Shown here: piece by piece, positions 27,380 through 64,000 of the stretch
Numbering within the stretch: position 1 is the first letter of the stretch
Layout of the letters: every line of letters begins with the position of its first letter
Origin: Flavobacterium sp.
GTDB lineage: Bacteria; Bacteroidota; Bacteroidia; Flavobacteriales; Flavobacteriaceae
Length of the DNA stretch: 64,000 nucleotides
Direction: 5' to 3'
NCBI RefSeq assembly: GCF_965262375.1
Contig: NZ_OZ253527.1
Location: 1,644,706-1,708,705, forward strand
Position numbers and translations under genes: made by a program
Notes under the pieces: model-generated
Seen by the model: only the letters and a program-made list of their open reading frames with translations
Databases searched by the model: none
What the model was told of the DNA's origin: nothing

Positions 27380-27455
27380 AATTTTTAAAATAAAATCATT
27401 AAAACTCAAATTCATTTTTTTGGATTTGAGTTTTTTTATTGAAAATTCTCCCACT

Positions 27456-27506
27456 CATCCATCACCCAACATCCATCACCCATCATCCATCACCCATCAT
27501 CCATCA
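27456..27506. repeat. 14-bp tandem repeat CATCCATCACCCAT x3.6
   Basis: Read directly; abuts the stop of ORF 27504-27839. Confidence 0.9.
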
Positions 27507-52477: not shown

Positions 52478-52506
52478 GGAATTTTTTATTTGTAAAAATA
52501 ATAAAA

Positions 52507-52632
52507 GAAAATAGATGGAAGAAAATAGATGGAAGAAAATAGATGGGAGAAAATAGATGGGAGAGAATAGATGGGAGAGAATAGATGGGAGAGAATAGAT
52601 GAGAGAGAATAGATGAGAGAAAATAGATGAGA
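52507..52632. repeat. 14-bp tandem array GA(A/G)AATAGATG(G/A)(A/G)A x9
   Basis: Read directly. Confidence 0.95.
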
Positions 52633-52667
52633 GAGAATTTATTTTATGGCTTTTGTATTGAAATACC

Positions 52668-52709
52668 CAATTCTAAATTCTGATTTCTAAATTCTAAATT
52701 CTAAATTCT
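52668..52709. repeat. 7-bp tandem repeat TTCTAAA, about 6 units
   Basis: Read directly. Confidence 0.85.
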
Positions 52710-55547: not shown

Positions 55548-56318
55548 TTACTTAAACACAAATTTCCCTTTTTCTTTATCAAAACTAATATCTTCATCCT
55601 CAAACAAGGTGTCAAAAGTGCCATTTTCTATGAGCAGGCAGGGTTCTGATTGCTGAAGGGAATCTTTTTTCATCACGAGCATTTCATCACTCAGTTGAAT
55701 GGCTAAATCAATATCATGGGTTGAAAAAAGAATGCATTTTTGGGTTTCTTGGGCTAATTTTTTTAGCAATTTAAATAACGAAACTTTATGGTGTAAATCC
55801 AAATGCGTTGTAGGCTCGTCTAAAATAATGATGGGGGTGTCTTGGGCTAATGCACGCGCAACTAATGCTTTTTGCAATTGACCATCGCTTAATTCAAAGT
55901 GTTTTTTGTCTTTTAAATGACTGATTTCGGTGAGTTCCAGTGCCCAATTGATTTTTTCAATATCCTCCAGCGTTAATTTACCTACCCAATTGGTGTAGGG
56001 TTGACGACCTAAAGCAACCAATTCAAACACGGACAAGTTACTGGGGGGTAATTTTTCGGTTAAAACCACGCTGAGGTTTTGTGCTAATGTCAAAGCGGAA
56101 TAGCTTGCTAAATTCTTGTTATTTAGTAACACTTCGCCTTGTAAGGGATTTTGAATTCCTGTTAACGTACGTAAAAGCGTTGATTTTCCAATTCCATTAG
56201 CGCCTATTAGAGTGACTAATTTTCCCTTAGCTAACGATAAATTTATCTGTTTTTGAATAGAAAGCGAGACGCCATTTTTTATATACCCTATCTTTAGGTT
56301 TTGCGTTTGTAATACCAT
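55548..56318 (-). CDS. ABC ATPase, FecE/BtuD-like
   Basis: GANGIGKST, LSDGQLQK and LDEPTTHLD motifs. Confidence 0.92.
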   Translation of the reverse strand: MVLQTQNLKIGYIKNGVSLSIQKQINLSLAKGKLVTLIGANGIGKSTLLRTLTGIQNPLQGEVLLNNKNLASYSALTLAQNLSVVLTEKLPPSNLSVFELVALGRQPYTNWVGKLTLEDIEKINWALELTEISHLKDKKHFELSDGQLQKALVARALAQDTPIIILDEPTTHLDLHHKVSLFKLLKKLAQETQKCILFSTHDIDLAIQLSDEMLVMKKDSLQQSEPCLLIENGTFDTLFEDEDISFDKEKGKFVFK

Positions 56319-56330
56319 AGAACACCTAGA

Positions 56331-57338
56331 TTAGTAATTTCGTTTTTTGATTAATAACCAAATGATAATGGGGGCACCTACTAATGAAGTAACCGCATTA
56401 ATAGGAATAGCAACTTCAAATCCTTGGGATACAATATCACAAAATAACATCACACAGATACCAGTAAGTAGGGTCGTGGTAAACAAATACAAATGTTGGC
56501 TCCCTTGAAAAATAATTCTTGCCATGTGGGGAATAGCTAAACCAATAAAGGCAATAGGTCCCACAAAAGCCGTTATCGTTCCTGTTAGTATACTCGTAAT
56601 AATGATGCTGTAATTTTGAGTCTTTTGGTAAGGAACGCCCATGCTACGCGCATAATTTTCACCCAATAAAAGTGCGTCTAAATTTTTCAATAAACTTAAG
56701 GTTACCAATAATAAGCTTGCAACGATGACTAAAATTAACCAAAGGTTATGCCATGCCACACTTCCTAAATTGCCCATGGACCAAAAAGTGAATTTTTGCA
56801 ATTGGTCAGCGGTAGAGAAGTAACTTAAAATGGTAATCATCGATGCGGTGAAATTGCTAAACATCAAACCAATGACTAAAATGGACATGGTGTTTTTTAC
56901 CTTTTGAGCGGTAAGCATAATGGCTAAAAGAACCACAAAAGAACCCAAACTGGACGCAATGACTAGTCCATACGATGAGGTGAAAATGGGAATCAAAAAA
57001 CTAGGAAGGAAACTACTGCCCATAATTACTAATGCCACCATGAGGCTAGACCCTGAACTCAGTCCTAATACATAAGGACCTGCTAAGGGATTGCGAAATA
57101 GTGTTTGCATTAATAACCCACAAACAGGTAATGCCATACCAACTACTATTGCCATCAATGCTTTGGGTAATCGAAAATTGAGGATGATGTATTCCCAAGT
57201 CGATTTGGTAGCGCCATTTCCAGTTAATATAGAAATGCTTTCTTTAAAAGGGATGTGTACTGAACCCAAACATAAATCCATAAAAAATAGGATAATTCCT
57301 AAAAGGATAATGCCTGTTATGCGTGTTTTGTTTTTCAA
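56331..57338 (-). CDS. FecCD/BtuC-type ABC permease
   Basis: RLPKA, FRNPLAGP..LGLSSG and GPIAFIGLAIPH motifs. Confidence 0.92.
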   Translation of the reverse strand: MKNKTRITGIILLGIILFFMDLCLGSVHIPFKESISILTGNGATKSTWEYIILNFRLPKALMAIVVGMALPVCGLLMQTLFRNPLAGPYVLGLSSGSSLMVALVIMGSSFLPSFLIPIFTSSYGLVIASSLGSFVVLLAIMLTAQKVKNTMSILVIGLMFSNFTASMITILSYFSTADQLQKFTFWSMGNLGSVAWHNLWLILVIVASLLLVTLSLLKNLDALLLGENYARSMGVPYQKTQNYSIIITSILTGTITAFVGPIAFIGLAIPHMARIIFQGSQHLYLFTTTLLTGICVMLFCDIVSQGFEVAIPINAVTSLVGAPIIIWLLIKKRNY

Positions 57339-57667: not shown

Positions 57668-58810
57668 CTATTGAATAGGGGTAGCGAAAGTAAAAGTGTA
57701 CTCTTTTAATACTTCGGGATGAAAAATCTTAATGTAATCTTTTAAGACCTTATCGGGTTGGCTTGGAGAACATTCAAAAAAGAGAGTGCCACCCGTTGCG
57801 CCTTTTTGACCTTCAAAGGTATATACTTTTTTATTTTTATAAGCTTTAAACTGTGTATAATGCGGGTTTGATTTGCCAAAATTCACCCAGTTGGTTTCTG
57901 TCCCTGTTGCAATCCAGATGGAAGCATTTTGTCCTTTGTCAAATACTTGCTCAAACGTCAAGGGGGCGCTTCCCACCCCTTTTAAATGTTTCCAAAGATA
58001 ATCCCCTTTCGCATCGGCTATAAAACGAGCTATCCAGCTTTCGCCTTTTGCCATATACCATTGGTCTTGATACATCGTTCCGTACATAACGGTAGGTTTT
58101 GTTTTTAGGTTTTGAACTAATTGAATCGCCTCTTGATAATTTTTTTTCACTTGGTCAAAATAGGATTTTGCTTCTTTTTCCTTGCCAAATAAAGCACCGA
58201 AGAATTTTATCCATTCGGCTTTTCCCAGCGGTGTTTGTTCCATCCAATCGGCTTGAATTAAAACAGGTATGCCCATTTTTTCAATTTGGGTTAAAGTAGG
58301 ATTGGTACCATCCACTCCAAATGAAATCAAAGCTTGAGGGGCTAAATCAATTAGTTTTTCTAAATCAATTTTTTCGTTTTCACCCAAATTTTTAATTTTT
58401 CCAGTATCTATGCGTTTTCTAGTTTTAGGAGACGAAATGTAATCTGTATGCGGAAAACCTGTGATTTTGTTTTCCACCCCTAGAATTTCCATAAAAGGAA
58501 TGTTGGTGGTTGATGTAACCACGACCTCTTTTAAAGGAACTTCAATTTTAGGGTAAGAAGCCAAACTATCAGCAATGGTCGCATGCGCCTTTGCTAATAC
58601 ATAGGTAAGCGGTTTTTGCGCATTAGGCCAAGGCGTAAGTACTTTTACCACGGTATAATTGTCGTATTCTTGAAGCGTAAACCCCGTGGCATCAGTTATG
58701 GTTGATGAAGTTTGACTTACATTGTCTGAGTTCGTATCATTTTTTTTGCATTGGATACTTAAGGTCAGTAGACTTATCCAAACTAGCGTGCGTATTATTT
58801 TTGGCATCAT
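57668..58810 (-). CDS. Substrate-binding lipoprotein, BtuF-like
   Basis: Lipobox, VVVTSTT, WMEQTPLGKAEWIKF and PDKVLKD; B12 gene context. Confidence 0.85.
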   Translation of the reverse strand: MMPKIIRTLVWISLLTLSIQCKKNDTNSDNVSQTSSTITDATGFTLQEYDNYTVVKVLTPWPNAQKPLTYVLAKAHATIADSLASYPKIEVPLKEVVVTSTTNIPFMEILGVENKITGFPHTDYISSPKTRKRIDTGKIKNLGENEKIDLEKLIDLAPQALISFGVDGTNPTLTQIEKMGIPVLIQADWMEQTPLGKAEWIKFFGALFGKEKEAKSYFDQVKKNYQEAIQLVQNLKTKPTVMYGTMYQDQWYMAKGESWIARFIADAKGDYLWKHLKGVGSAPLTFEQVFDKGQNASIWIATGTETNWVNFGKSNPHYTQFKAYKNKKVYTFEGQKGATGGTLFFECSPSQPDKVLKDYIKIFHPEVLKEYTFTFATPIQ

Positions 58811-58944: not shown

Positions 58945-59067
58945 ACTATTTACTTTTTACTATTCACCATTCACCATTCACTATTTACTGACTACTGACC
59001 ACTGATTACTGATTACTGAATACTAATTACTGTTACTATTTACCATTCACTAATCACTTTTTACTTA
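58945..59067. repeat. Degenerate 7-bp array (ACTGATT/ACCATTC/ACTATTT), about 17 units
   Basis: Read directly; lies between the divergent btuF-like and cobU genes. Confidence 0.85.
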
Positions 59068-59100: not shown

Positions 59101-59610
59101 ATGTTATATCTTATTACAGGAGGGGAGCGTTCGGGTAAAAGTTCGTATGCGCAAGAATTAGCCATAAGTTTGAGTGACCAACCTATGTATGTGGCAACGG
59201 CACGCAAGTGGGATGGTGATTTTCAAAAGCGTATCGACCGGCATCAAAGCGAGCGTGATGAACGTTGGACGAATATTGAAGAAGAAAAGCAATTGAGTCG
59301 TATTGATTTTAGCGGTAAAGTTGCGATGATTGACTGTGTGACTCTTTGGTTAACTAACTATTTTGTAGATACTAAAAATGATATTGAATTATGTTTGCAA
59401 CAAGCCAAAGCTGAAATTGAACAGTTGGTATTACAAGAAAATGCAACTATAATCATAATCACTAACGAAATTGGGATGGGCGTTCATGCGCATACTGAAG
59501 TTGGTAGAAAATTTACCGAATTGCAAGGTTGGATGAATCAGTTTATAGCTAAAAAAGCAGATAAAGTGATTTTGATGGTTTCGGGGATTCCAGTAACGAT
59601 TAAAGGGTAA
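59101..59610 (+). CDS. cobU: Adenosylcobinamide kinase/guanylyltransferase
   Basis: ITGGERSGKS, RIDRHQ, IDCVTLWL and TNEIGMG motifs. Confidence 0.95.
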   Translation: MLYLITGGERSGKSSYAQELAISLSDQPMYVATARKWDGDFQKRIDRHQSERDERWTNIEEEKQLSRIDFSGKVAMIDCVTLWLTNYFVDTKNDIELCLQQAKAEIEQLVLQENATIIIITNEIGMGVHAHTEVGRKFTELQGWMNQFIAKKADKVILMVSGIPVTIKG

Positions 59611-59613
59611 TTC

Positions 59614-60261
59614 ATGAAAGCAGTTTTGTCCTGGAGTGGTGGTAAAGACAGTTGTTATGCAGCCATGCAAGCCCTCAAACAAGGAATTCAGCCCACAGTA
59701 TTGTTGAATATGATGAATGAAAATGGAAGGGTTTCGCGTTCGCATGGGTTAACAACGTCTATTTTAGCACAACAAGCCCAACAAATAGGCGTGCCTCTGG
59801 TGGGTATTCCAGCCACTTGGAATGCTTATGAATCAAAATACATTCAGGCGTTGCAGGATATCAAACAAACGTATGCGGTGGAAGCGGTTGTTTTTGGTGA
59901 TATTGATTTAGCTCCGCATCGTGAATGGGAGGAAAAAGTGTGTGAACAAGCACAATTGCAAGCTGTTTTACCACTTTGGCAACATAATCGATTGACGTTA
60001 GTTCATGCCATGCTGGGCGAAGGGATGCAGTGTGTTATCGTGTCTTGTAATACCTTGATGGGCGTTGATTTTTTAGGAAAAACACTTGATACATCGGTTA
60101 TAGAAGCTTTAGTGGCTCTAGGGGTAGACCCTTGTGGCGAAAATGGTGAGTTTCATACCGTTGTGGTCGATTGTCCTTTGTTTGCCCAGCCTATTCAATT
60201 GCCTAACTATCGAAAAGAAGTATATCAAGACTATTGCTTTTTGGTGTGGGAGGAGGATTAG
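59614..60261 (+). CDS. Dph6-like (diphthine-ammonia ligase family) PP-loop ATPase
   Basis: SWSGGKDS PP-loop, VFGDI, PLW and DPCGENGEFHT motifs. Confidence 0.88.
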   Translation: MKAVLSWSGGKDSCYAAMQALKQGIQPTVLLNMMNENGRVSRSHGLTTSILAQQAQQIGVPLVGIPATWNAYESKYIQALQDIKQTYAVEAVVFGDIDLAPHREWEEKVCEQAQLQAVLPLWQHNRLTLVHAMLGEGMQCVIVSCNTLMGVDFLGKTLDTSVIEALVALGVDPCGENGEFHTVVVDCPLFAQPIQLPNYRKEVYQDYCFLVWEED

Positions 60262-60355
60262 TGGTCAGAATCCAGTAATCAGTGGTCAGTAATCAGTGGT
60301 CAGTAATCAGTGGTCAGTAATCAGAAGTCAGAAATTAGAATTTAGAATTTAGAAA
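60260..60355. repeat. CAGTAATCAGTGGT x3.7 then TTAGAAT-type heptamers
   Basis: Read directly; starts at the stop codon. Confidence 0.9.
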
Positions 60356-60382
60356 AAGGTTCTTTACATTAAAAAAATAAAA

Positions 60383-61387
60383 ATGGATTTAGTTCAGCAA
60401 TTACAACATAAAATAGATACCAAAACAAAACCATTAGGCGCTTTGGGACAATTAGAAGAAATAGCGCTTCAAATTGGAAAAATGTTTACCACGTTAACGC
60501 CTGAAATCAAAATGCCGCACATGTTGGTTTTTGCGGGTGACCATGGAATAGCTAAGGAAGGCGTTAGCGCTTATCCAGCTGAGGTGACGCCACAAATGGT
60601 GTTGAATTTTGTGAATGGAGGTGCTGCTATTAACGTTTTTTCTCGTCAAAATGGATTGGCATTGAAAGTCATTGATGCGGGAGTGAATTTTGATTTCGAT
60701 TCTAATTTGCCTATTCTACATCAAAAAGAGGCGTATGGAACTCAGTCTTTTTTAAAAGGACCTGCGATGACACCCTCACAAATGAAATCGTGTTTTGAAA
60801 AAGGAGGAGCTGTGGTGCAACAAATTTTTGAGGAGGGGTCTAATTGTGTTGGTTTTGGTGAAATGGGAATAGGAAATACCGCTACTTCATCGGTATTGAT
60901 GAGTATTCTAACAGGAATTCCTATCGAAGCTTGTGTGGGGAGTGGTACTGGGGTAGTTCACGAAGCTTTGGAACGAAAAATAGCTATATTAAAAGAAGCC
61001 GTAAATAGTTACAAAGGTGAAGATACTATAGAAGCTAGGTTGGCTTATTTTGGAGGTTTTGAAATTTTTCAAATGGCTGGAGGGATGCTGAAAGCTTTTG
61101 AAAACAAAATGTTAATTTTAGTTGACGGTTTTATTAGCTCGGTAGCATTTTTAGTAGCGCAACATTACCAACCACAAATCAAACAGCAGGCTATTTTTTG
61201 TCATTGTTCGCAAGAAAAAGCACATAAAGCGATACTGAATCAATTGGAAGTAAAAGCTGTTTTAGATTTAGGTTTGCGTTTAGGTGAAGGAACAGGCGTA
61301 GCCTTAGCTTTTCCTCTTATTAAAAGTGCCGTGGCTTTCCTGAATGAAATGGCAAGCTTTGAAGAAGCTGGAGTGAGCGAGAAGTAG
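60383..61387 (+). CDS. cobT: Nicotinate-nucleotide:DMB phosphoribosyltransferase
   Basis: TKPLGALGQLE, FAGDHG, GEMGIGNT and LRLGEGTG motifs. Confidence 0.96.
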   Translation: MDLVQQLQHKIDTKTKPLGALGQLEEIALQIGKMFTTLTPEIKMPHMLVFAGDHGIAKEGVSAYPAEVTPQMVLNFVNGGAAINVFSRQNGLALKVIDAGVNFDFDSNLPILHQKEAYGTQSFLKGPAMTPSQMKSCFEKGGAVVQQIFEEGSNCVGFGEMGIGNTATSSVLMSILTGIPIEACVGSGTGVVHEALERKIAILKEAVNSYKGEDTIEARLAYFGGFEIFQMAGGMLKAFENKMLILVDGFISSVAFLVAQHYQPQIKQQAIFCHCSQEKAHKAILNQLEVKAVLDLGLRLGEGTGVALAFPLIKSAVAFLNEMASFEEAGVSEK

Positions 61388-61615
61388 AATTTAGAACTTA
61401 GAGAATAGATAAAAGAGAATAGATAAAAGAGAATAGATAAAAGAGAATAGATAAAAGAGAATAGAAAATAGAATTTTGACTGTATAATCTTCTCTAGGAA
61501 TTCAAAAGGCTCATAACTCCTAACTCCTAACTCATACCCGACAACTGATAACTGATAACTGATAACCGATAACTGATAACCGATAACTGATAACCGATAA
61601 CTGATAACCGATAAC
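61388..61615. repeat. Compound array: GAGAATAGATAAAA x4, TAACTCC-type x3, AAC(T/C)GAT x10
   Basis: Units at 61401-61456, 61510-61536 and 61543-61612; fills the cobT-cobS spacer. Confidence 0.95.
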
Positions 61616-61626
61616 GAATCACAAAA

Positions 61627-62430
61627 ATGATAAAAAAACAACTAGACATATTTTTTACGGCGATGATGTTTTATACCCGTATTCCGTGTCCAAAACACAT
61701 CAATCATGACCCTACATATTTGAATAAAGCAACGCGTTATTTTCCGTTGATAGGTTGGCTAGTAGGTGCAGTTTCTGGGCTTGTGTTTTTGGGAGCTAAT
61801 TATTTGTTTACGCCTTTCATAGCGGTTGTTTGTAGTTTGATTGCTGGAATTTTGACAACGGGAGCTTTTCATGAAGATGGTTTTGCAGATGTTTGTGATG
61901 GTTTTGGTGGCGGATGGACGAAAGAGAAAATTTTGAAAATCATGAAAGACAGCGCTATTGGAGCTTACGGAGCCATAGGTGTTGTTTTGTTGTTGCTGTG
62001 TAAGTTTTTAGTGATTTTTGAAATCATCAATCGTATTCCTTTTGCTTTTGAAAATAAAATTCTTTTTGTCATGCTGCTGTTTTTAGTCTATCACAGCGTG
62101 AGCCGATGCAATGCGATTTCCTTGTCTTTCACCTTGCCTTATGTACGCGAGGACGAATTGAGCAAAAGCAAACCCATTGCTAAAGCGTATAGTTGGGTGG
62201 AAGTAGCGGGCGCTTTGTTCTTTGGTTTAGTTCCTTTATTGTTATTTAGTTTTTTCTATACGCCATTTTTTCTATTGGTAGTACCTGTGTTGTTTGTGGT
62301 ACGTGCTTATATGGGACGTTTTTTTACCAAATGGATAGGCGGTTATACCGGTGATTGTTTAGGGGCTTTAGAACAAGTGAGCGAAGTAGCTACGTTATTA
62401 ACAATTTTGTCGGTATGCAAGTTTATTTAG
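61627..62430 (+). CDS. cobS: Cobalamin 5'-phosphate synthase
   Basis: FYTRIP, GAFHEDGFADVCDGFGGG, MKDSAIG and GYTGDCLGA motifs. Confidence 0.96.
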   Translation: MIKKQLDIFFTAMMFYTRIPCPKHINHDPTYLNKATRYFPLIGWLVGAVSGLVFLGANYLFTPFIAVVCSLIAGILTTGAFHEDGFADVCDGFGGGWTKEKILKIMKDSAIGAYGAIGVVLLLLCKFLVIFEIINRIPFAFENKILFVMLLFLVYHSVSRCNAISLSFTLPYVREDELSKSKPIAKAYSWVEVAGALFFGLVPLLLFSFFYTPFFLLVVPVLFVVRAYMGRFFTKWIGGYTGDCLGALEQVSEVATLLTILSVCKFI

Positions 62431-62942
62431 TACGTCATACCGAAACCGTTTGTGAAAAAGGAATTTGCTACGGACAAAGTGATGTGGCATTGATGTCAGA
62501 TTTTGAACCAAATTTTATAACTATAAAGAAGCAACTCCCTGAAAAAGCCATTGTTTTTAGTAGTCCATTAATTCGTTGTACACAATTAGCCACGTATTGT
62601 TATCCTGATGATACCCTGATTTTAGAACCTCGTTTGATGGAAATGAATTTTGGCTCATGGGAATTACAAGCATGGAGTAGCATTCCTGAAAATGAGTTAA
62701 ATCCATGGATGGAAGATTTTGTAAAAGTGCCAGTCCCGCAAGGAGAATCTTTTGAAATTTTATACGATAGAGTCGTGGCATTTTGGAATGAAATTCGTTT
62801 GCAGCATAGTGATATACCTATCGTTATCTTTACGCATGCGGGTGTGATTAGAAGTTTGAATTGTCATTTTACCCAACTTCCCCTTCAAGATGCCTTTACA
62901 CTTAAAGTTGATTTTGGAGAAGTAATAACGTATTCCTTTTAA
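62415..62942 (+). CDS. cobC: Alpha-ribazole phosphatase (histidine phosphatase)
   Basis: YLVRHT, SSPLIRC, EMNFGSWE and THAGVIR; follows cobS. Confidence 0.9.
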   Translation: MQVYLVRHTETVCEKGICYGQSDVALMSDFEPNFITIKKQLPEKAIVFSSPLIRCTQLATYCYPDDTLILEPRLMEMNFGSWELQAWSSIPENELNPWMEDFVKVPVPQGESFEILYDRVVAFWNEIRLQHSDIPIVIFTHAGVIRSLNCHFTQLPLQDAFTLKVDFGEVITYSF

Positions 62943-63074
62943 AAATATAGGATTTATTTACTTATATGAATTTTGTGACCGACTCAGTGTTGTGTGGGTT
63001 GTGTTGTTGATTTTTTGTTTTCGTTGTGAATTTAGTGTGTTTTATTGAGGGTATTTGTTAATAATGTGTATTTG

Positions 63075-63105
63075 TTTGCATTTTCTTTAATTCTGCTTAT
63101 TTTTG
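63075..63105 (+). promoter_or_regulatory. Bacteroidota promoter (-33 TTTG / -7 TATTTTTG)
   Basis: TTTG at 63075-63078, 19-bp spacer, TATTTTTG at 63098-63105; just before the riboswitch. Confidence 0.7.
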
Positions 63106-63114
63106 CACTCAAAT

Positions 63115-63400
63115 TTATGGTGTGTTGTTTCTTTTAAGGAACAATGCTTAAAAGGGAATCAGGGATTTTATTGGATTTAGAAATTAACGTTCTAATAGCT
63201 AAAGTCATCAAACTAAAATCATAAGCCTGAGCTGTACCCGCAACTGTAAGCTATCTAGCTTGTAATTATCTACTGCCACTGTTTTAGAAAATTAGAGTGT
63301 AGATTTTAGAATGTCGATTTCAAATCGAATATCAAAAATCAAAAGTCTAAAATTTAAATGGGAAGGCCAATTACAAGACGCAAGCCAGGAGACCTGCCAT
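63115..63400 (+). promoter_or_regulatory. Cobalamin riboswitch
   Basis: AAAGGGAA, CCCGCAACTGTAA, GCCACTG, GGGAAGGC and B12 box GCCAGGAGACCTGCC in the correct order. Confidence 0.93.
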
Positions 63401-63450
63401 TGTAGTATTAATTTAATTGGAATCTTCGGGAGCTAGGATTCACAACAGCT

Positions 63451-64000
63451 ATGCGTTTAAAAAGTTATCTATTTATCTGTTTTATTATTTTTTGTGGGCA
63501 AAGTTCATGGTCGCAAAAAAACACATCTATTTCTCTAAAAGAAGTTGTAATTGCAACGAATCATAATTCTAGTCTTAAAGTTAATCAACAGCAAAAGTTT
63601 AATGACTCAATAATTAATCAGCATCAACCTATATTGAGTGATTTGCTAAAAAACAACACTTTGCTATACTTTAAAGAATACGGACAAGGAATGCTTTCAA
63701 CCGTATCTTTTAGAGGTACAACAGCTTCGCAGACTGCTGTATTATGGAACGGAATTAATATTAATTCACAATTAAACGGAAGTACCGATTTTAATACTAT
63801 TTCTTTAAATGGTATTCAAAATGTTGAGGTAAAGGCTGGTGGAGGAAGTGTATTGTATGGGAGTGGAGCAATAGGAGGTACGGTGCATTTGAATAATCAG
63901 CTTGTTTATGGTGGAAAGAATCGATATGAAATTGGTTTATCTGCGGGATCTTTTGATACTTACAGTGGGAAATTTTCAGCATCGGTTCCGGGGGTAAAGA
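63451..64000 (+). CDS. btuB: TonB-dependent receptor, probable B12/cobinamide importer (3'-truncated by window)
   Basis: Hand translation gives a signal peptide and plug domain YFKEYGQGMLSTVSFRGTTASQTAVLWNGININSQLNG; downstream of the riboswitch. Confidence 0.85.
   Translation, partial: MRLKSYLFICFIIFCGQSSWSQKNTSISLKEVVIATNHNSSLKVNQQQKFNDSIINQHQPILSDLLKNNTLLYFKEYGQGMLSTVSFRGTTASQTAVLWNGININSQLNGSTDFNTISLNGIQNVEVKAGGGSVLYGSGAIGGTVHLNNQLVYGGKNRYEIGLSAGSFDTYSGKFSASVPGVK

What the first reader, a model, noticed from the sequence alone, without database searches (positions are those of the whole stretch)
59614..60261. Dph6-like ATP-dependent amidase-family gene inside the cob operon
It lies 3 bp after cobU and before cobT. 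Dph6 amidates a carboxylate of diphthine on EF-2, a substrate bacteria lack. Corrinoids carry amide side chains, so this enzyme may re-amidate or repair salvaged, deamidated corrinoids, or activate a carboxylate in place of the missing CbiP/CbiB step. That would be an undescribed B12 repair activity.
Basis: inference. Interest (0 to 1): 0.65.

Follow-up and report, generated by a model that had tools for sequence, protein, structure and literature searches.

The report
Known B12-linked Dph6 paralogue (DUF71-B12)
The gene is real and sits in a vitamin-B12 salvage operon of a Flavobacterium, but it belongs to a bacterial branch of the diphthamide-synthetase family that was already tied to B12 salvage in 2012, and its chemical reaction is still untested.

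Summary
Observation confirmed. ORF 59614-60261 (+, 215 aa) is a PF01902 PP-loop ATP pyrophosphatase. It starts 3 nt after cobU and is followed by cobT-cobS-cobC.

It is not Dph6. It scores below the Dph6 equivalog cut-off, has H181 where Dph6 has its catalytic Glu, and the genome has no Dph2. It carries the ENGEFH signature of the "DUF71-B12" subgroup, which de Crecy-Lagard et al. 2012 (PMC3541065) linked to B12 salvage. The B12 link is therefore published, and this scan has met the same gene in at least 8 other genomes. I found no experimental follow-up.

- This complete genome lacks CbiB, CbiZ, CbiP, BluB and MetE.
- 25 of 26 Bacteroidota genomes with a btu/cob-linked orthologue lack CbiB, and 8 also lack CobS.
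- A cobalamin riboswitch lies at 27 of 50 orthologue loci.
- A second paralogue is also B12-uptake-linked elsewhere.
- Many loci pair the enzyme with a BtuM-like membrane protein (DUF6580) and a signal-less BtuF-like protein.

This argues against the published CbiZ-substitute idea and against a CbiB substitute. It leaves ATP-dependent re-amidation of an imported corrinoid carboxylate as the best-fitting guess (about 0.4), but it is unproven.

The parts
55548..56318 (-). btuD-like ABC ATPase of the divergent corrinoid importer
   Evidence: PF00005 match. NCBIfam hits to the corrinoid/FecE ATPase families are all below their cut-offs. The same gene order recurs in 8 Flavobacterium loci.
56331..57338 (-). 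btuC-like permease
   Evidence: PF01032 FecCD, 1.7e-72. The best NCBIfam hit is BtuC, at 193 bits, below its cut-off.
57668..58810 (-). btuF-like substrate-binding lipoprotein
   Evidence: PF01497 match. The N-terminus has a lipoprotein-type signal ending in ...LSIQC.
58945..59043 (.). Period-7/14 tandem arrays in the btuF-cobU intergenic region
   Evidence: TRF rows. They are the reverse complement of the array at 60273-60354: 52 nt, 81% complementary. This is a genome-wide intergenic feature.
59101..59610 (+). cobU (adenosylcobinamide kinase / guanylyltransferase)
   Evidence: PF02283 2e-53. NF004469 scores 161.6 bits against a cut-off of 161.
59614..60261 (+). DUF71-B12 PP-loop ATP pyrophosphatase (the finding); paralogue 'A' of this genome
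   Evidence: PF01902 1.6e-43. PP-loop S8-G-G-K-D-S13, H44, and G175-E-N-G-E-F-H181-T. Fold TM 0.87 to PH1257/PF0828.
60273..60354 (.). 14-nt tandem array (CAGTAATCAGTGGT x4.5) filling the DUF71-cobT gap
   Evidence: In relatives this position holds the BluB half of a BluB-CobT fusion.
60383..61387 (+). cobT (NaMN:DMB phosphoribosyltransferase), without the BluB domain seen in relatives
   Evidence: TIGR03160 419.5 bits. L006 CobT is 561 aa with BluB at residues 4-197. No BluB anywhere in the genome.
61627..62430 (+). cobS (cobalamin-5'-phosphate synthase)
   Evidence: NF001277 297 bits, above its cut-off.
62355..62942 (+). cobC (alpha-ribazole phosphatase); true start probably later than 62355
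   Evidence: TIGR03162 166 bits against a cut-off of 162.9, with the match beginning at residue 23. A terminator-like site follows at 62980-63001.
63101..63415 (+). Cobalamin riboswitch, the only one in the genome
   Evidence: RF00174 65.4 bits, E=1.5e-14. It is the single match in the whole genome.
63451..64000 (+). 5' part of a btuB-like TonB-dependent receptor (runs off the window)
   Evidence: The best NCBIfam hit of the extended ORF (L005 1851-3314) is the TonB-dependent vitamin B12 receptor, below its cut-off. The homologous receptor is present at 30 of 80 related loci.

Best explanation
The ORF encodes a cytoplasmic PP-loop ATP pyrophosphatase of the bacterial DUF71-B12 branch of the Dph6/MJ0570 family. 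It is expressed as the second gene of a cobU-DUF71-cobT-cobS-cobC unit, beside a divergent btuFCD importer and upstream of a riboswitch-controlled btuB.

Most likely mechanism (inferred, not shown): like Dph6, it uses ATP to adenylate a carboxylate, releasing PPi, and resolves the acyl-adenylate with ammonia or another amine. The carboxylate would belong to an imported corrinoid, for example a cobalamin or cobinamide whose acetamide or propionamide side chain has been hydrolysed. The damaged corrinoid would thereby become usable by this B12-auxotrophic salvager.

Shown here: family and fold membership, an intact ATP site, loss of the Dph6 catalytic Glu, absence of diphthamide genes, membership of corrinoid uptake/salvage loci and B12-riboswitch regulons across phyla, and independence from CbiB, CbiZ and, in several genomes, CobS.

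Inferred: the substrate and the direction of the reaction.

I put about 0.9 on 'acts in uptake or processing of exogenous corrinoids' and about 0.4 on the specific amidoligase reaction. The confidence given is for the latter.
For: Family and ATP site:
- PF01902 at 1.6e-43.
- The PP-loop SGGKDS, H44 and T182 are conserved. W7, S8-K11, H44, D96, E176, G178 and H181 are invariant in 23 orthologues.
- GExGE[FY]H[TS] and SGGKD[SC] dominate in 128 cluster representatives.
- Fold TM 0.87 to ATP-bound PF0828.

B12 context:
- The same cobU-DUF71-(bluB)cobT-cobS-cobC order next to btuDCF occurs in 8 other Flavobacterium species and in Breznakibacter. Aquimarina, Tamlana and Flavivirga have btuDCF<|DUF71> facing cobCSTU.
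- A BtuB-like receptor lies at 30 of 80 loci, and CobA lies next to the gene in 4 loci of other phyla.
- A cobalamin riboswitch lies at 27 of 50 loci, against about 0.4 expected by chance (75 riboswitches in 50 genomes of about 4 Mb).

Independence from remodelling enzymes:
- G000 has no CbiB, CbiZ or CobA.
- 25 of 26 Bacteroidota genomes with a btu/cob-linked orthologue lack CbiB.
- 8 of them, including Roseivirga isolates, also lack CobS, although there the gene sits in a riboswitch-btuFCD-btuB operon.
- In organisms that can only import finished cobamides, the corrin side chains are among the few positions left for an amide-forming ligase to act on.

The organism needs exogenous corrinoid: MetH, MCM and IcmF are present, and MetE, BluB and CbiP are absent.
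Against: - There is no biochemical or genetic test of any DUF71-B12 protein in the searchable literature.
- I found nothing in the library on the abundance of deamidated corrinoids in nature.
- The replacement of the Dph6 catalytic Glu by His may mean a different chemistry rather than only a different substrate.
- 32 of the 80 nearest species-level homologues show no corrinoid gene within 6 kb. These are mostly Proteobacteria, Deinococcus and Firmicutes, and my Flavobacterium-derived seeds are weak there. 13 more rest only on the DUF6580 neighbour.
- Many B12 importers, such as E. coli, do without this enzyme, and 6 of 9 sampled Flavobacterium genomes with cobU lack paralogue A.
Confidence: 0.4

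Rival explanations
1. Published model (de Crecy-Lagard et al. 2012): DUF71-B12 does the job of bacterial CbiZ. It cleaves adenosyl-pseudo-B12 or cobinamide to adenosylcobyric acid, or opens another pseudo-B12 salvage route, and the product is rebuilt through CbiB.
For: - The paper reports strict anti-correlation with bacterial CbiZ and 18 of 102 genes adjacent to cbiB.
- CbiZ is also rare here: 0 in G000 and 2 of 50 orthologue genomes.
- cbiB lies in the same riboswitch-headed gene string in L058 and L060.
Against: - Cobyric acid would be a dead end in G000 and in 25 of 26 Bacteroidota genomes with linked orthologues, because CbiB is not found there.
- 8 of those genomes also lack CobS.
- In a 201-genome phylum sample, 50 genomes have DUF71 and 38 have CbiB, with no overlap. 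28 of the 38 CbiB genomes have neither CbiZ nor DUF71, so the 'CbiB implies CbiZ or DUF71' rule is not seen.
- A hydrolase has no need for the strictly conserved ATP pyrophosphatase loop.
Confidence: 0.08
2. CbiB substitute. The enzyme adenylates the f-propionate of imported cobyric acid and joins aminopropanol or its phosphate, giving cobinamide(-P) for CobU, CobS and CobT in genomes without CbiB.
For: - The chemistry fits: ATP-dependent amide-bond formation on a corrin carboxylate.
- The gene sits between cobU and cobT.
- DUF71 and CbiB do not overlap in the Bacteroidota sample.
- G000 lacks CbiB.
Against: - Orthologues at 45-47% identity sit in riboswitch-btuFCD-btuB operons of genomes without CobS, where cobinamide could not be used.
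- Orthologues co-occur with cbiB and lie next to it in other phyla, and in 18 of 102 cases in the 2012 paper.
- G000 has no threonine-phosphate decarboxylase above the cut-off. The best hit lies directly upstream of hisH, so I read it as the histidine-operon aminotransferase, though it was not annotated here.
- An earlier agent in this scan reached the same view on other DNA. That is a lead only.
Confidence: 0.12
3. Uptake-coupling or trafficking factor. The enzyme spends ATP to trap, release or hand over the corrinoid after membrane passage. It would work with a cytoplasmic BtuF-like binding protein and a BtuM-like facilitator, or it modifies a non-carboxylate position.
For: - The module btuB - DUF6580 - signal-less BtuF-like protein - DUF71 recurs, often behind a B12 riboswitch (L041, L091, L094, L101).
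- The best fold match of the DUF6580 model is BtuM with hydroxocobalamin, TM 0.62/0.67.
- The BtuM paper itself invokes metabolic trapping by a cytoplasmic enzyme for this kind of ATP-independent transporter.
Against: - In the window the importer is an ATP-driven BtuFCD that needs no trapping, and there is no cytoplasmic BtuF-like gene.
- No known PP-loop enzyme acts as a release factor.
- Any covalent trapping product would still have to be a usable cofactor.
Confidence: 0.2
4. Hitch-hiker. The gene is unrelated to B12 and was inserted by chance into the cob operon.
For: - It is patchy within the genus: cobU-adjacent in 3 of 9 sampled Flavobacterium genomes.
- cobU plus the gene are bracketed by inverted heptamer arrays.
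Against: - Linkage recurs across Flavobacteriales, Cytophagales, Kiritimatiellae, Halanaerobiales and Syntrophaceae, in different gene orders and with different transporters.
- The heptamer arrays are a genome-wide intergenic feature: 145 arrays, 124 outside long ORFs.
- The 3-nt gap after cobU indicates co-translation.
Confidence: 0.03

Closest known systems
DUF71-B12 subgroup of DUF71/COG2102/PF01902 (de Crecy-Lagard, Forouhar, Brochier-Armanet, Tong, Hunt 2012, Biol Direct 7:32; e.g. P. furiosus PF0295, C. perfringens YP_695745)
   Same: ENGE[F/Y]H motif with His in place of the Dph6 Glu188, conserved PP-loop, clustering with btuCDF and other B12 salvage genes, and no CbiZ in the genome.
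   Different: This genome and nearly all linked Bacteroidota genomes lack CbiB, which the paper's CbiZ-substitute model needs. There are two B12-linked paralogues here rather than one.
Dph6, diphthine-ammonia ligase EC 6.3.1.14 (structures PF0828 3RJZ/3RK0/3RK1, PH1257 2D13)
   Same: Same fold (TM 0.86-0.87), the same ATP-binding PP-loop, and about 25% identity.
   Different: It scores below the NCBIfam equivalog cut-off (111.6 vs 197.3 bits). Glu188 is replaced by His181. The genome has no Dph2, and bacteria have no EF-2 diphthine.
CbiZ (adenosylcobinamide / pseudo-B12 amidohydrolase, PF01955)
   Same: It was proposed in 2012 to fill the same niche in corrinoid salvage.
   Different: There is no sequence relationship. 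CbiZ needs no ATP and needs CbiB downstream, and both are missing here.
CbiA/CobB and CbiP/CobQ corrin amidotransferases
   Same: They are the known ATP-dependent enzymes that amidate corrin carboxylates, which is the reaction type proposed here (established pathway knowledge).
   Different: They have an unrelated fold (MinD/CobQ-type ATPase plus a glutaminase domain) and belong to de novo synthesis. The only GATase_3 hit in this genome is HisH.
BtuM (solitary S-component B12 transporter, PDB 8OVV/6FFV) as a model for the DUF6580 partner
   Same: The DUF6580 model has the S-component fold with BtuM as its best match. The genes lie between btuB and DUF71 behind B12 riboswitches.
   Different: There is no detectable sequence similarity, the Foldseek E-value is only 0.12, and no transport data exist. 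DUF6580 is not present in the window.

Membership tests
Dph6 (diphthine-ammonia ligase) | PF01902 domain and N-type ATP pyrophosphatase fold with an SGGKDS PP-loop | tested here: met
   Pfam 1.6e-43. S8GGKDS13 is present. TM 0.87 to 2D13/3RK1.
Dph6 (diphthine-ammonia ligase) | EGGE/DxE motif with the catalytic Glu188 (PF0828 numbering) | tested here: not met
   The window has GENGEFHT, and H181 aligns with E188 of PF0828.
Dph6 (diphthine-ammonia ligase) | Score above the curated equivalog cut-off (TIGR03679) | tested here: not met
   111.6 bits against a cut-off of 197.3.
Dph6 (diphthine-ammonia ligase) | Substrate pathway present (Dph2 making the diphthine precursor on EF-2) | tested here: not met
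   No PF01866 match in the complete genome, while the archaeal controls are positive.
DUF71-B12 subgroup | ENGE[F/Y]H signature replacing EGGE/DxE | tested here: met
   E176-N-G-E-F-H181. The motif is defined in PMC3541065.
DUF71-B12 subgroup | Physical clustering with B12 transport or salvage genes | tested here: met
   In the window it lies between cobU and cobT, next to btuFCD and a riboswitch-btuB. 35 of 80 related loci carry classical B12 genes or a riboswitch.
DUF71-B12 subgroup | Anti-correlation with bacterial CbiZ | tested here: met
   No CbiZ in G000, and CbiZ in 2 of 50 orthologue genomes.
DUF71-B12 subgroup | Co-occurrence with CbiB, as implied by the proposed CbiZ-like role | tested here: not met
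   No CbiB in G000. CbiB in 9 of 50 orthologue genomes. No overlap in the 201-genome phylum sample.
DUF71-B12 subgroup | Defined biochemical activity | not testable with these tools
   No activity has been published.
CbiZ | PF01955 domain | tested here: not met
   The protein matches only PF01902.
CbiP/CobQ, CbiA/CobB amidotransferases | CobQ/CbiA-type ATPase plus GATase_3 glutaminase domain | tested here: not met
   The protein has no such domains. The genome's only GATase_3 hit is HisH.

The most novel reading that the evidence does not exclude
The two DUF71 paralogues of this genome would be corrinoid side-chain amidoligases. After import, they would use ATP and ammonia to restore hydrolysed acetamide or propionamide groups on cobalamin or cobinamide. 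This would be a B12 repair step that works without CbiB, CbiZ or the nucleotide-loop enzymes, and in many bacteria it would be teamed with a BtuM-like transporter and a cytoplasmic BtuF-like corrinoid carrier.
Probability: 0.35. Interest if true: 0.7.

Novelty: already known. Interest (0 to 1): 0.3.

Why it matters
DUF71-B12 is a long-standing "known unknown" of B12 salvage. Most bacteria depend on corrinoids made by a few producers, so an enzyme that widens the range of usable or damaged corrinoids would matter for cofactor exchange in aquatic, soil and gut communities.

This gene itself is an ordinary member of the published subgroup.
- The enzyme works in genomes with no CbiB, CbiZ or CobS.
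- It comes in two B12-linked paralogues.
- It often travels with a BtuM-like membrane protein and a signal-less BtuF-like protein.
- It keeps an intact ATP pyrophosphatase site.

Together these point away from the published amidohydrolase idea and towards a ligase acting on finished, imported corrinoids.

Tried and rejected
- **Later experimental work on DUF71-B12:** four literature searches found none. A search for natural deamidated cobalamins found nothing relevant.
- **Bona fide Dph6:** rejected.
- **Mobile cassette marked by the inverted heptamer arrays around cobU-DUF71:** rejected, because 145 such arrays occur genome-wide, mostly between genes.
- **GATase_3 hit as a hidden CbiP:** it is HisH.
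- **Best TIGR01140 hit as CobD:** it is below the cut-off and lies directly upstream of hisH.
- **Sequence searches of DUF6580 against the PDB:** nothing useful. Only the fold search linked it to BtuM.
- **Careful maximum-likelihood tree of 128 representatives:** it did not finish. The quick tree has weak deep support, so I use it only to say that paralogues A and B fall in different groups.
- **Domain fusions among distant homologues** (GNAT, methyltransferase, zf-like, Cys-rich CWC): too heterogeneous to assign a function.

Full report
**1. The observation**

The window holds an ATG-started ORF at 59614-60261 on the + strand, 215 aa long. The cobU stop codon ends at 59610 and only TTC separates it from the ATG. 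cobT starts at 60383.

The gene order around it is:
- btuD (55548-56318), btuC (56331-57338) and btuF (57668-58810), all on the minus strand
- then cobU (59101-59610), the ORF, cobT (60383-61387), cobS (61627-62430) and cobC (to 62942) on the plus strand
- then a cobalamin riboswitch at 63101-63415 (65.4 bits), followed by a btuB-like TonB-dependent receptor

The ORF matches PF01902 (Diphthami_syn_2) at E=1.6e-43 over its whole length. No terminator-like site lies inside the cobU-cobC string, and one lies just after cobC at 62980-63001. The only wording change is that the family are ATP-dependent amide-forming ligases, not amidases.

**2. What it is not**

It is not diphthine-ammonia ligase.
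- The Dph6 equivalog model scores 111.6 bits against a cut-off of 197.3.
- In the alignment to the solved archaeal enzyme PF0828, the motif GEGGEFE(188)T reads GENGEFH(181)T.
- The complete genome (3.14 Mb, one contig, 99.99% complete) has no Dph2.
- The fold itself is unchanged. An AlphaFold2 model with pLDDT 96.6 superposes on PH1257 and on ATP-bound PF0828 at TM 0.86-0.87.

**3. What is already known**

De Crecy-Lagard et al. 2012 (Biol Direct 7:32, PMC3541065) split DUF71/COG2102 into Dph6 and a "DUF71-B12" subgroup.
- The subgroup is defined by the ENGEF/YH motif and by clustering with B12 genes. They found 75 of 102 genes next to btuCDF-type transporters and 18 of 102 next to cbiB.
- From an anti-correlation with bacterial CbiZ, they cautiously proposed a pseudo-B12 amidohydrolase or another pseudo-B12 salvage role.
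- I found no later experimental paper.

The window protein has the signature motif and the context, so it is a member of that subgroup. Public annotations of its relatives still read "diphthine--ammonia ligase", "Dph6-related ATP pyrophosphatase" or "adenosine nucleotide hydrolase". The closest named relatives are Flavobacterium species, with F. columnare at 67% identity. Notes from this scan show the same gene was flagged and resolved the same way in at least eight other genomes. I treat those as leads only.

**4. The genome**

G000 uses corrinoids but does not make them.
- Present: MetH, methylmalonyl-CoA mutase and IcmF, and a PduO-type adenosyltransferase.
- Absent: MetE, CbiB, CbiZ, CobA/BtuR and BluB.
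- No CbiP: the only GATase_3 hit is HisH.
- No threonine-phosphate decarboxylase above the cut-off.
- The window's riboswitch is the only one in the genome.
- A second PF01902 gene, paralogue B, lies at G000:C1:2253465-2254061. It also carries GENGEFHT and sits in a non-B12 neighbourhood.

**5. Relatives and context**

The family is large. There are 3932 cluster representatives at E<=0.001, and the PP-loop and the GExGE[FY]H[TS] motif are kept in the 128 closest.

I fetched 80 species-level loci and annotated neighbours with seeds from the window, clustering and Pfam/NCBIfam.
- Eight Flavobacterium loci and Breznakibacter repeat the window's gene order. Seven of those Flavobacterium loci also carry the full btuDCF set, and the eighth is cut within btuF.
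- Aquimarina, Tamlana and Flavivirga have btuDCF divergent from the gene, with cobCSTU convergent.
- Roseivirga and Reichenbachiella have riboswitch-btuFCD-btuB followed by paralogue A and then paralogue B.
- Kiritimatiellae, Halanaerobiales and Syntrophaceae place it beside CobA. In Kiritimatiellae and Syntrophaceae cobT and cobS lie in the same locus as well.
- A BtuB-like receptor lies within 6 kb in 30 of 80 loci.

Cobalamin riboswitches fall at 27 of 50 loci checked. Twenty-six are inside the fetched 10-kb flanks and one is 0.8 kb beyond (with the ranges). These 50 genomes hold 75 riboswitches in about 4 Mb each, so chance would give about 0.4.

In all, 48 of 80 loci have at least one corrinoid-linked neighbour, or 35 of 80 if DUF6580-only loci are left out. 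The remaining 32 are mostly Proteobacteria, Deinococcus and Firmicutes. My seeds are weak there, so I cannot say whether they are unlinked.

**6.

Among the 50 orthologue genomes:
- CbiB is found in 9, CobS in 29 and CbiZ in 2.
- Of the 26 Bacteroidota genomes whose orthologue is btu/cob-linked, 25 lack CbiB.
- Eight of those also lack CobS, including the Roseivirga thermotolerans isolate and a complete Roseivirga chromosome.

In an evenly drawn sample of 201 high-quality genomes of the phylum:
- 50 genomes have PF01902 above the cut-off.
- 38 genomes have CbiB.
- 10 genomes have CbiZ, all of them CbiB-positive.
- No genome has both DUF71 and CbiB.
- 28 of the 38 CbiB genomes have neither CbiZ nor DUF71.

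These genomes are related to one another, so this is a pattern and not a statistic.

Consequences:
- A CbiZ-like cleavage to cobyric acid would be a dead end in most of these organisms, and the rule "CbiB implies CbiZ or DUF71" is not seen in this phylum.
- A CbiB substitute fits the anti-correlation. However, it does not fit the CobS-less genomes, the cbiB-adjacent cases in other phyla, or the missing aminopropanol-phosphate supply.
- What stays constant is corrinoid uptake plus this enzyme.
- In organisms that can only import finished cobamides, few positions remain for an ATP-dependent, amide-forming enzyme. The corrin side chains are the obvious ones.
It remains an inference.

**7. Partners**

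Paralogue B has orthologues at 41-57% identity.
- They sit directly after paralogue A in Roseivirga and Cyclobacteriaceae, and after cobC in Reichenbachiella.
- They lie within 8 kb in Flavivirga and Tamlana.
- A Pirellulaceae contig reads B-DUF6580-A.

Of 14 B-type loci taken from the phylum sample, 6 are in corrinoid context:
- riboswitch-btuB-DUF71B
- riboswitch-DUF71B-btuFCD
- riboswitch-btuB-DUF6580-X-DUF71B
- btuB-DUF6580-X-cobUTSC-DUF71B

X is a 311-314 aa PF01497 (BtuF-like) protein that starts straight with MK.CSFLPAAT and has no signal peptide. The window's own BtuF, by contrast, has a lipoprotein signal.

DUF6580 (PF20221) is the immediate neighbour of paralogue A in 15 loci, mostly Chitinophagaceae. 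Its AlphaFold2 model (pLDDT 82) has the S-component fold. BtuM bound to hydroxocobalamin is its best PDB match (TM 0.62/0.67, E=0.12), followed by RibU, ThiT and PanT. Sequence searches find nothing. The BtuM paper proposes metabolic trapping by a cytoplasmic enzyme for such ATP-independent transporters. That keeps a trafficking or trapping role alive as a rival.

**8. Local peculiarities**

In relatives, CobT is a 561-aa BluB-CobT fusion that starts right after the DUF71 gene. In the window, cobT is 334 aa, BluB is absent from the genome, and the gap is filled by a 14-nt tandem array.

Period-7/14 arrays also fill the btuF-cobU gap and the cobT-cobS gap. The arrays on either side of cobU-DUF71 are reverse complements of each other. 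Genome-wide there are 145 such arrays, and 124 of them lie outside long ORFs. I therefore read them as a general intergenic feature and not as a mark of mobility.

**9. Verdict**

The B12 link is real but published. The CbiB/CbiP-replacement idea is unlikely. The repair-amidation idea is the most economical reading of the new distribution data, at about 0.4, but it is untested.
- Novelty: already known as a kind. Interest is low to moderate.

Noticed in passing
window 27450-27506, 52506-52709, 58945-59043, 60273-60354, 61400-61615; genome-wide in G000: Tandem arrays with period 7, 14 or 21 and varied sequence fill many intergenic gaps, including every gap of the cob operon. Genome-wide there are 145 merged arrays (11.6 kb in total), and 124 lie outside long ORFs. 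The arrays flanking cobU-DUF71 are reverse complements of each other (52 nt, 81%). Their function is unknown.
   Followed up: partly
window 60262-60382 versus L006 10657-12342: Relatives encode a BluB-CobT fusion (561 aa) directly after the DUF71 gene. This genome has a plain 334-aa CobT, a tandem array in place of the BluB half, and no BluB anywhere. It must therefore obtain its lower ligand base from outside.
   Followed up: partly
G000:C1:2253465-2254061 (L002 1366-2211, minus strand): This is a second DUF71 paralogue (B) with a GENGEFHT motif and an SSGKDS loop. It lies next to an Asp/Asn beta-hydroxylase-like gene and a 168-aa protein with no family match. Its orthologues elsewhere sit in B12-riboswitch uptake operons, often right after paralogue A.
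   Followed up: partly
L091 1-5711, L094 4878-9413, L101 1247-5723, L041 4945-10639, L063 2-1689: A recurrent module is btuB - DUF6580 (BtuM-like fold) - signal-less BtuF-like protein (about 312 aa) - DUF71, often behind a cobalamin riboswitch. It is a candidate BtuCD-independent corrinoid uptake and processing system in Bacteroidota, and a Pirellulaceae contig carries the B-DUF6580-A core. L041 also carries a DUF5074 protein between btuB and DUF6580.
   Followed up: partly
L086 (G000:C1:1432811-1436086), residues 374-485 of the MetH reading frame: The methionine synthase ORF matches a DUF559 (endonuclease-like) family model in frame, between the pterin-binding part and the B12-binding part. 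This may be an inserted domain or a selfish element.
   Followed up: no
L059 5264-5385; L040 6768-6837: A molybdenum-cofactor riboswitch lies 3 kb from the DUF71 gene of a Halanaerobiales MAG. A Flavo-1 sRNA lies next to btuD in a Flavobacteriaceae MAG.
   Followed up: no
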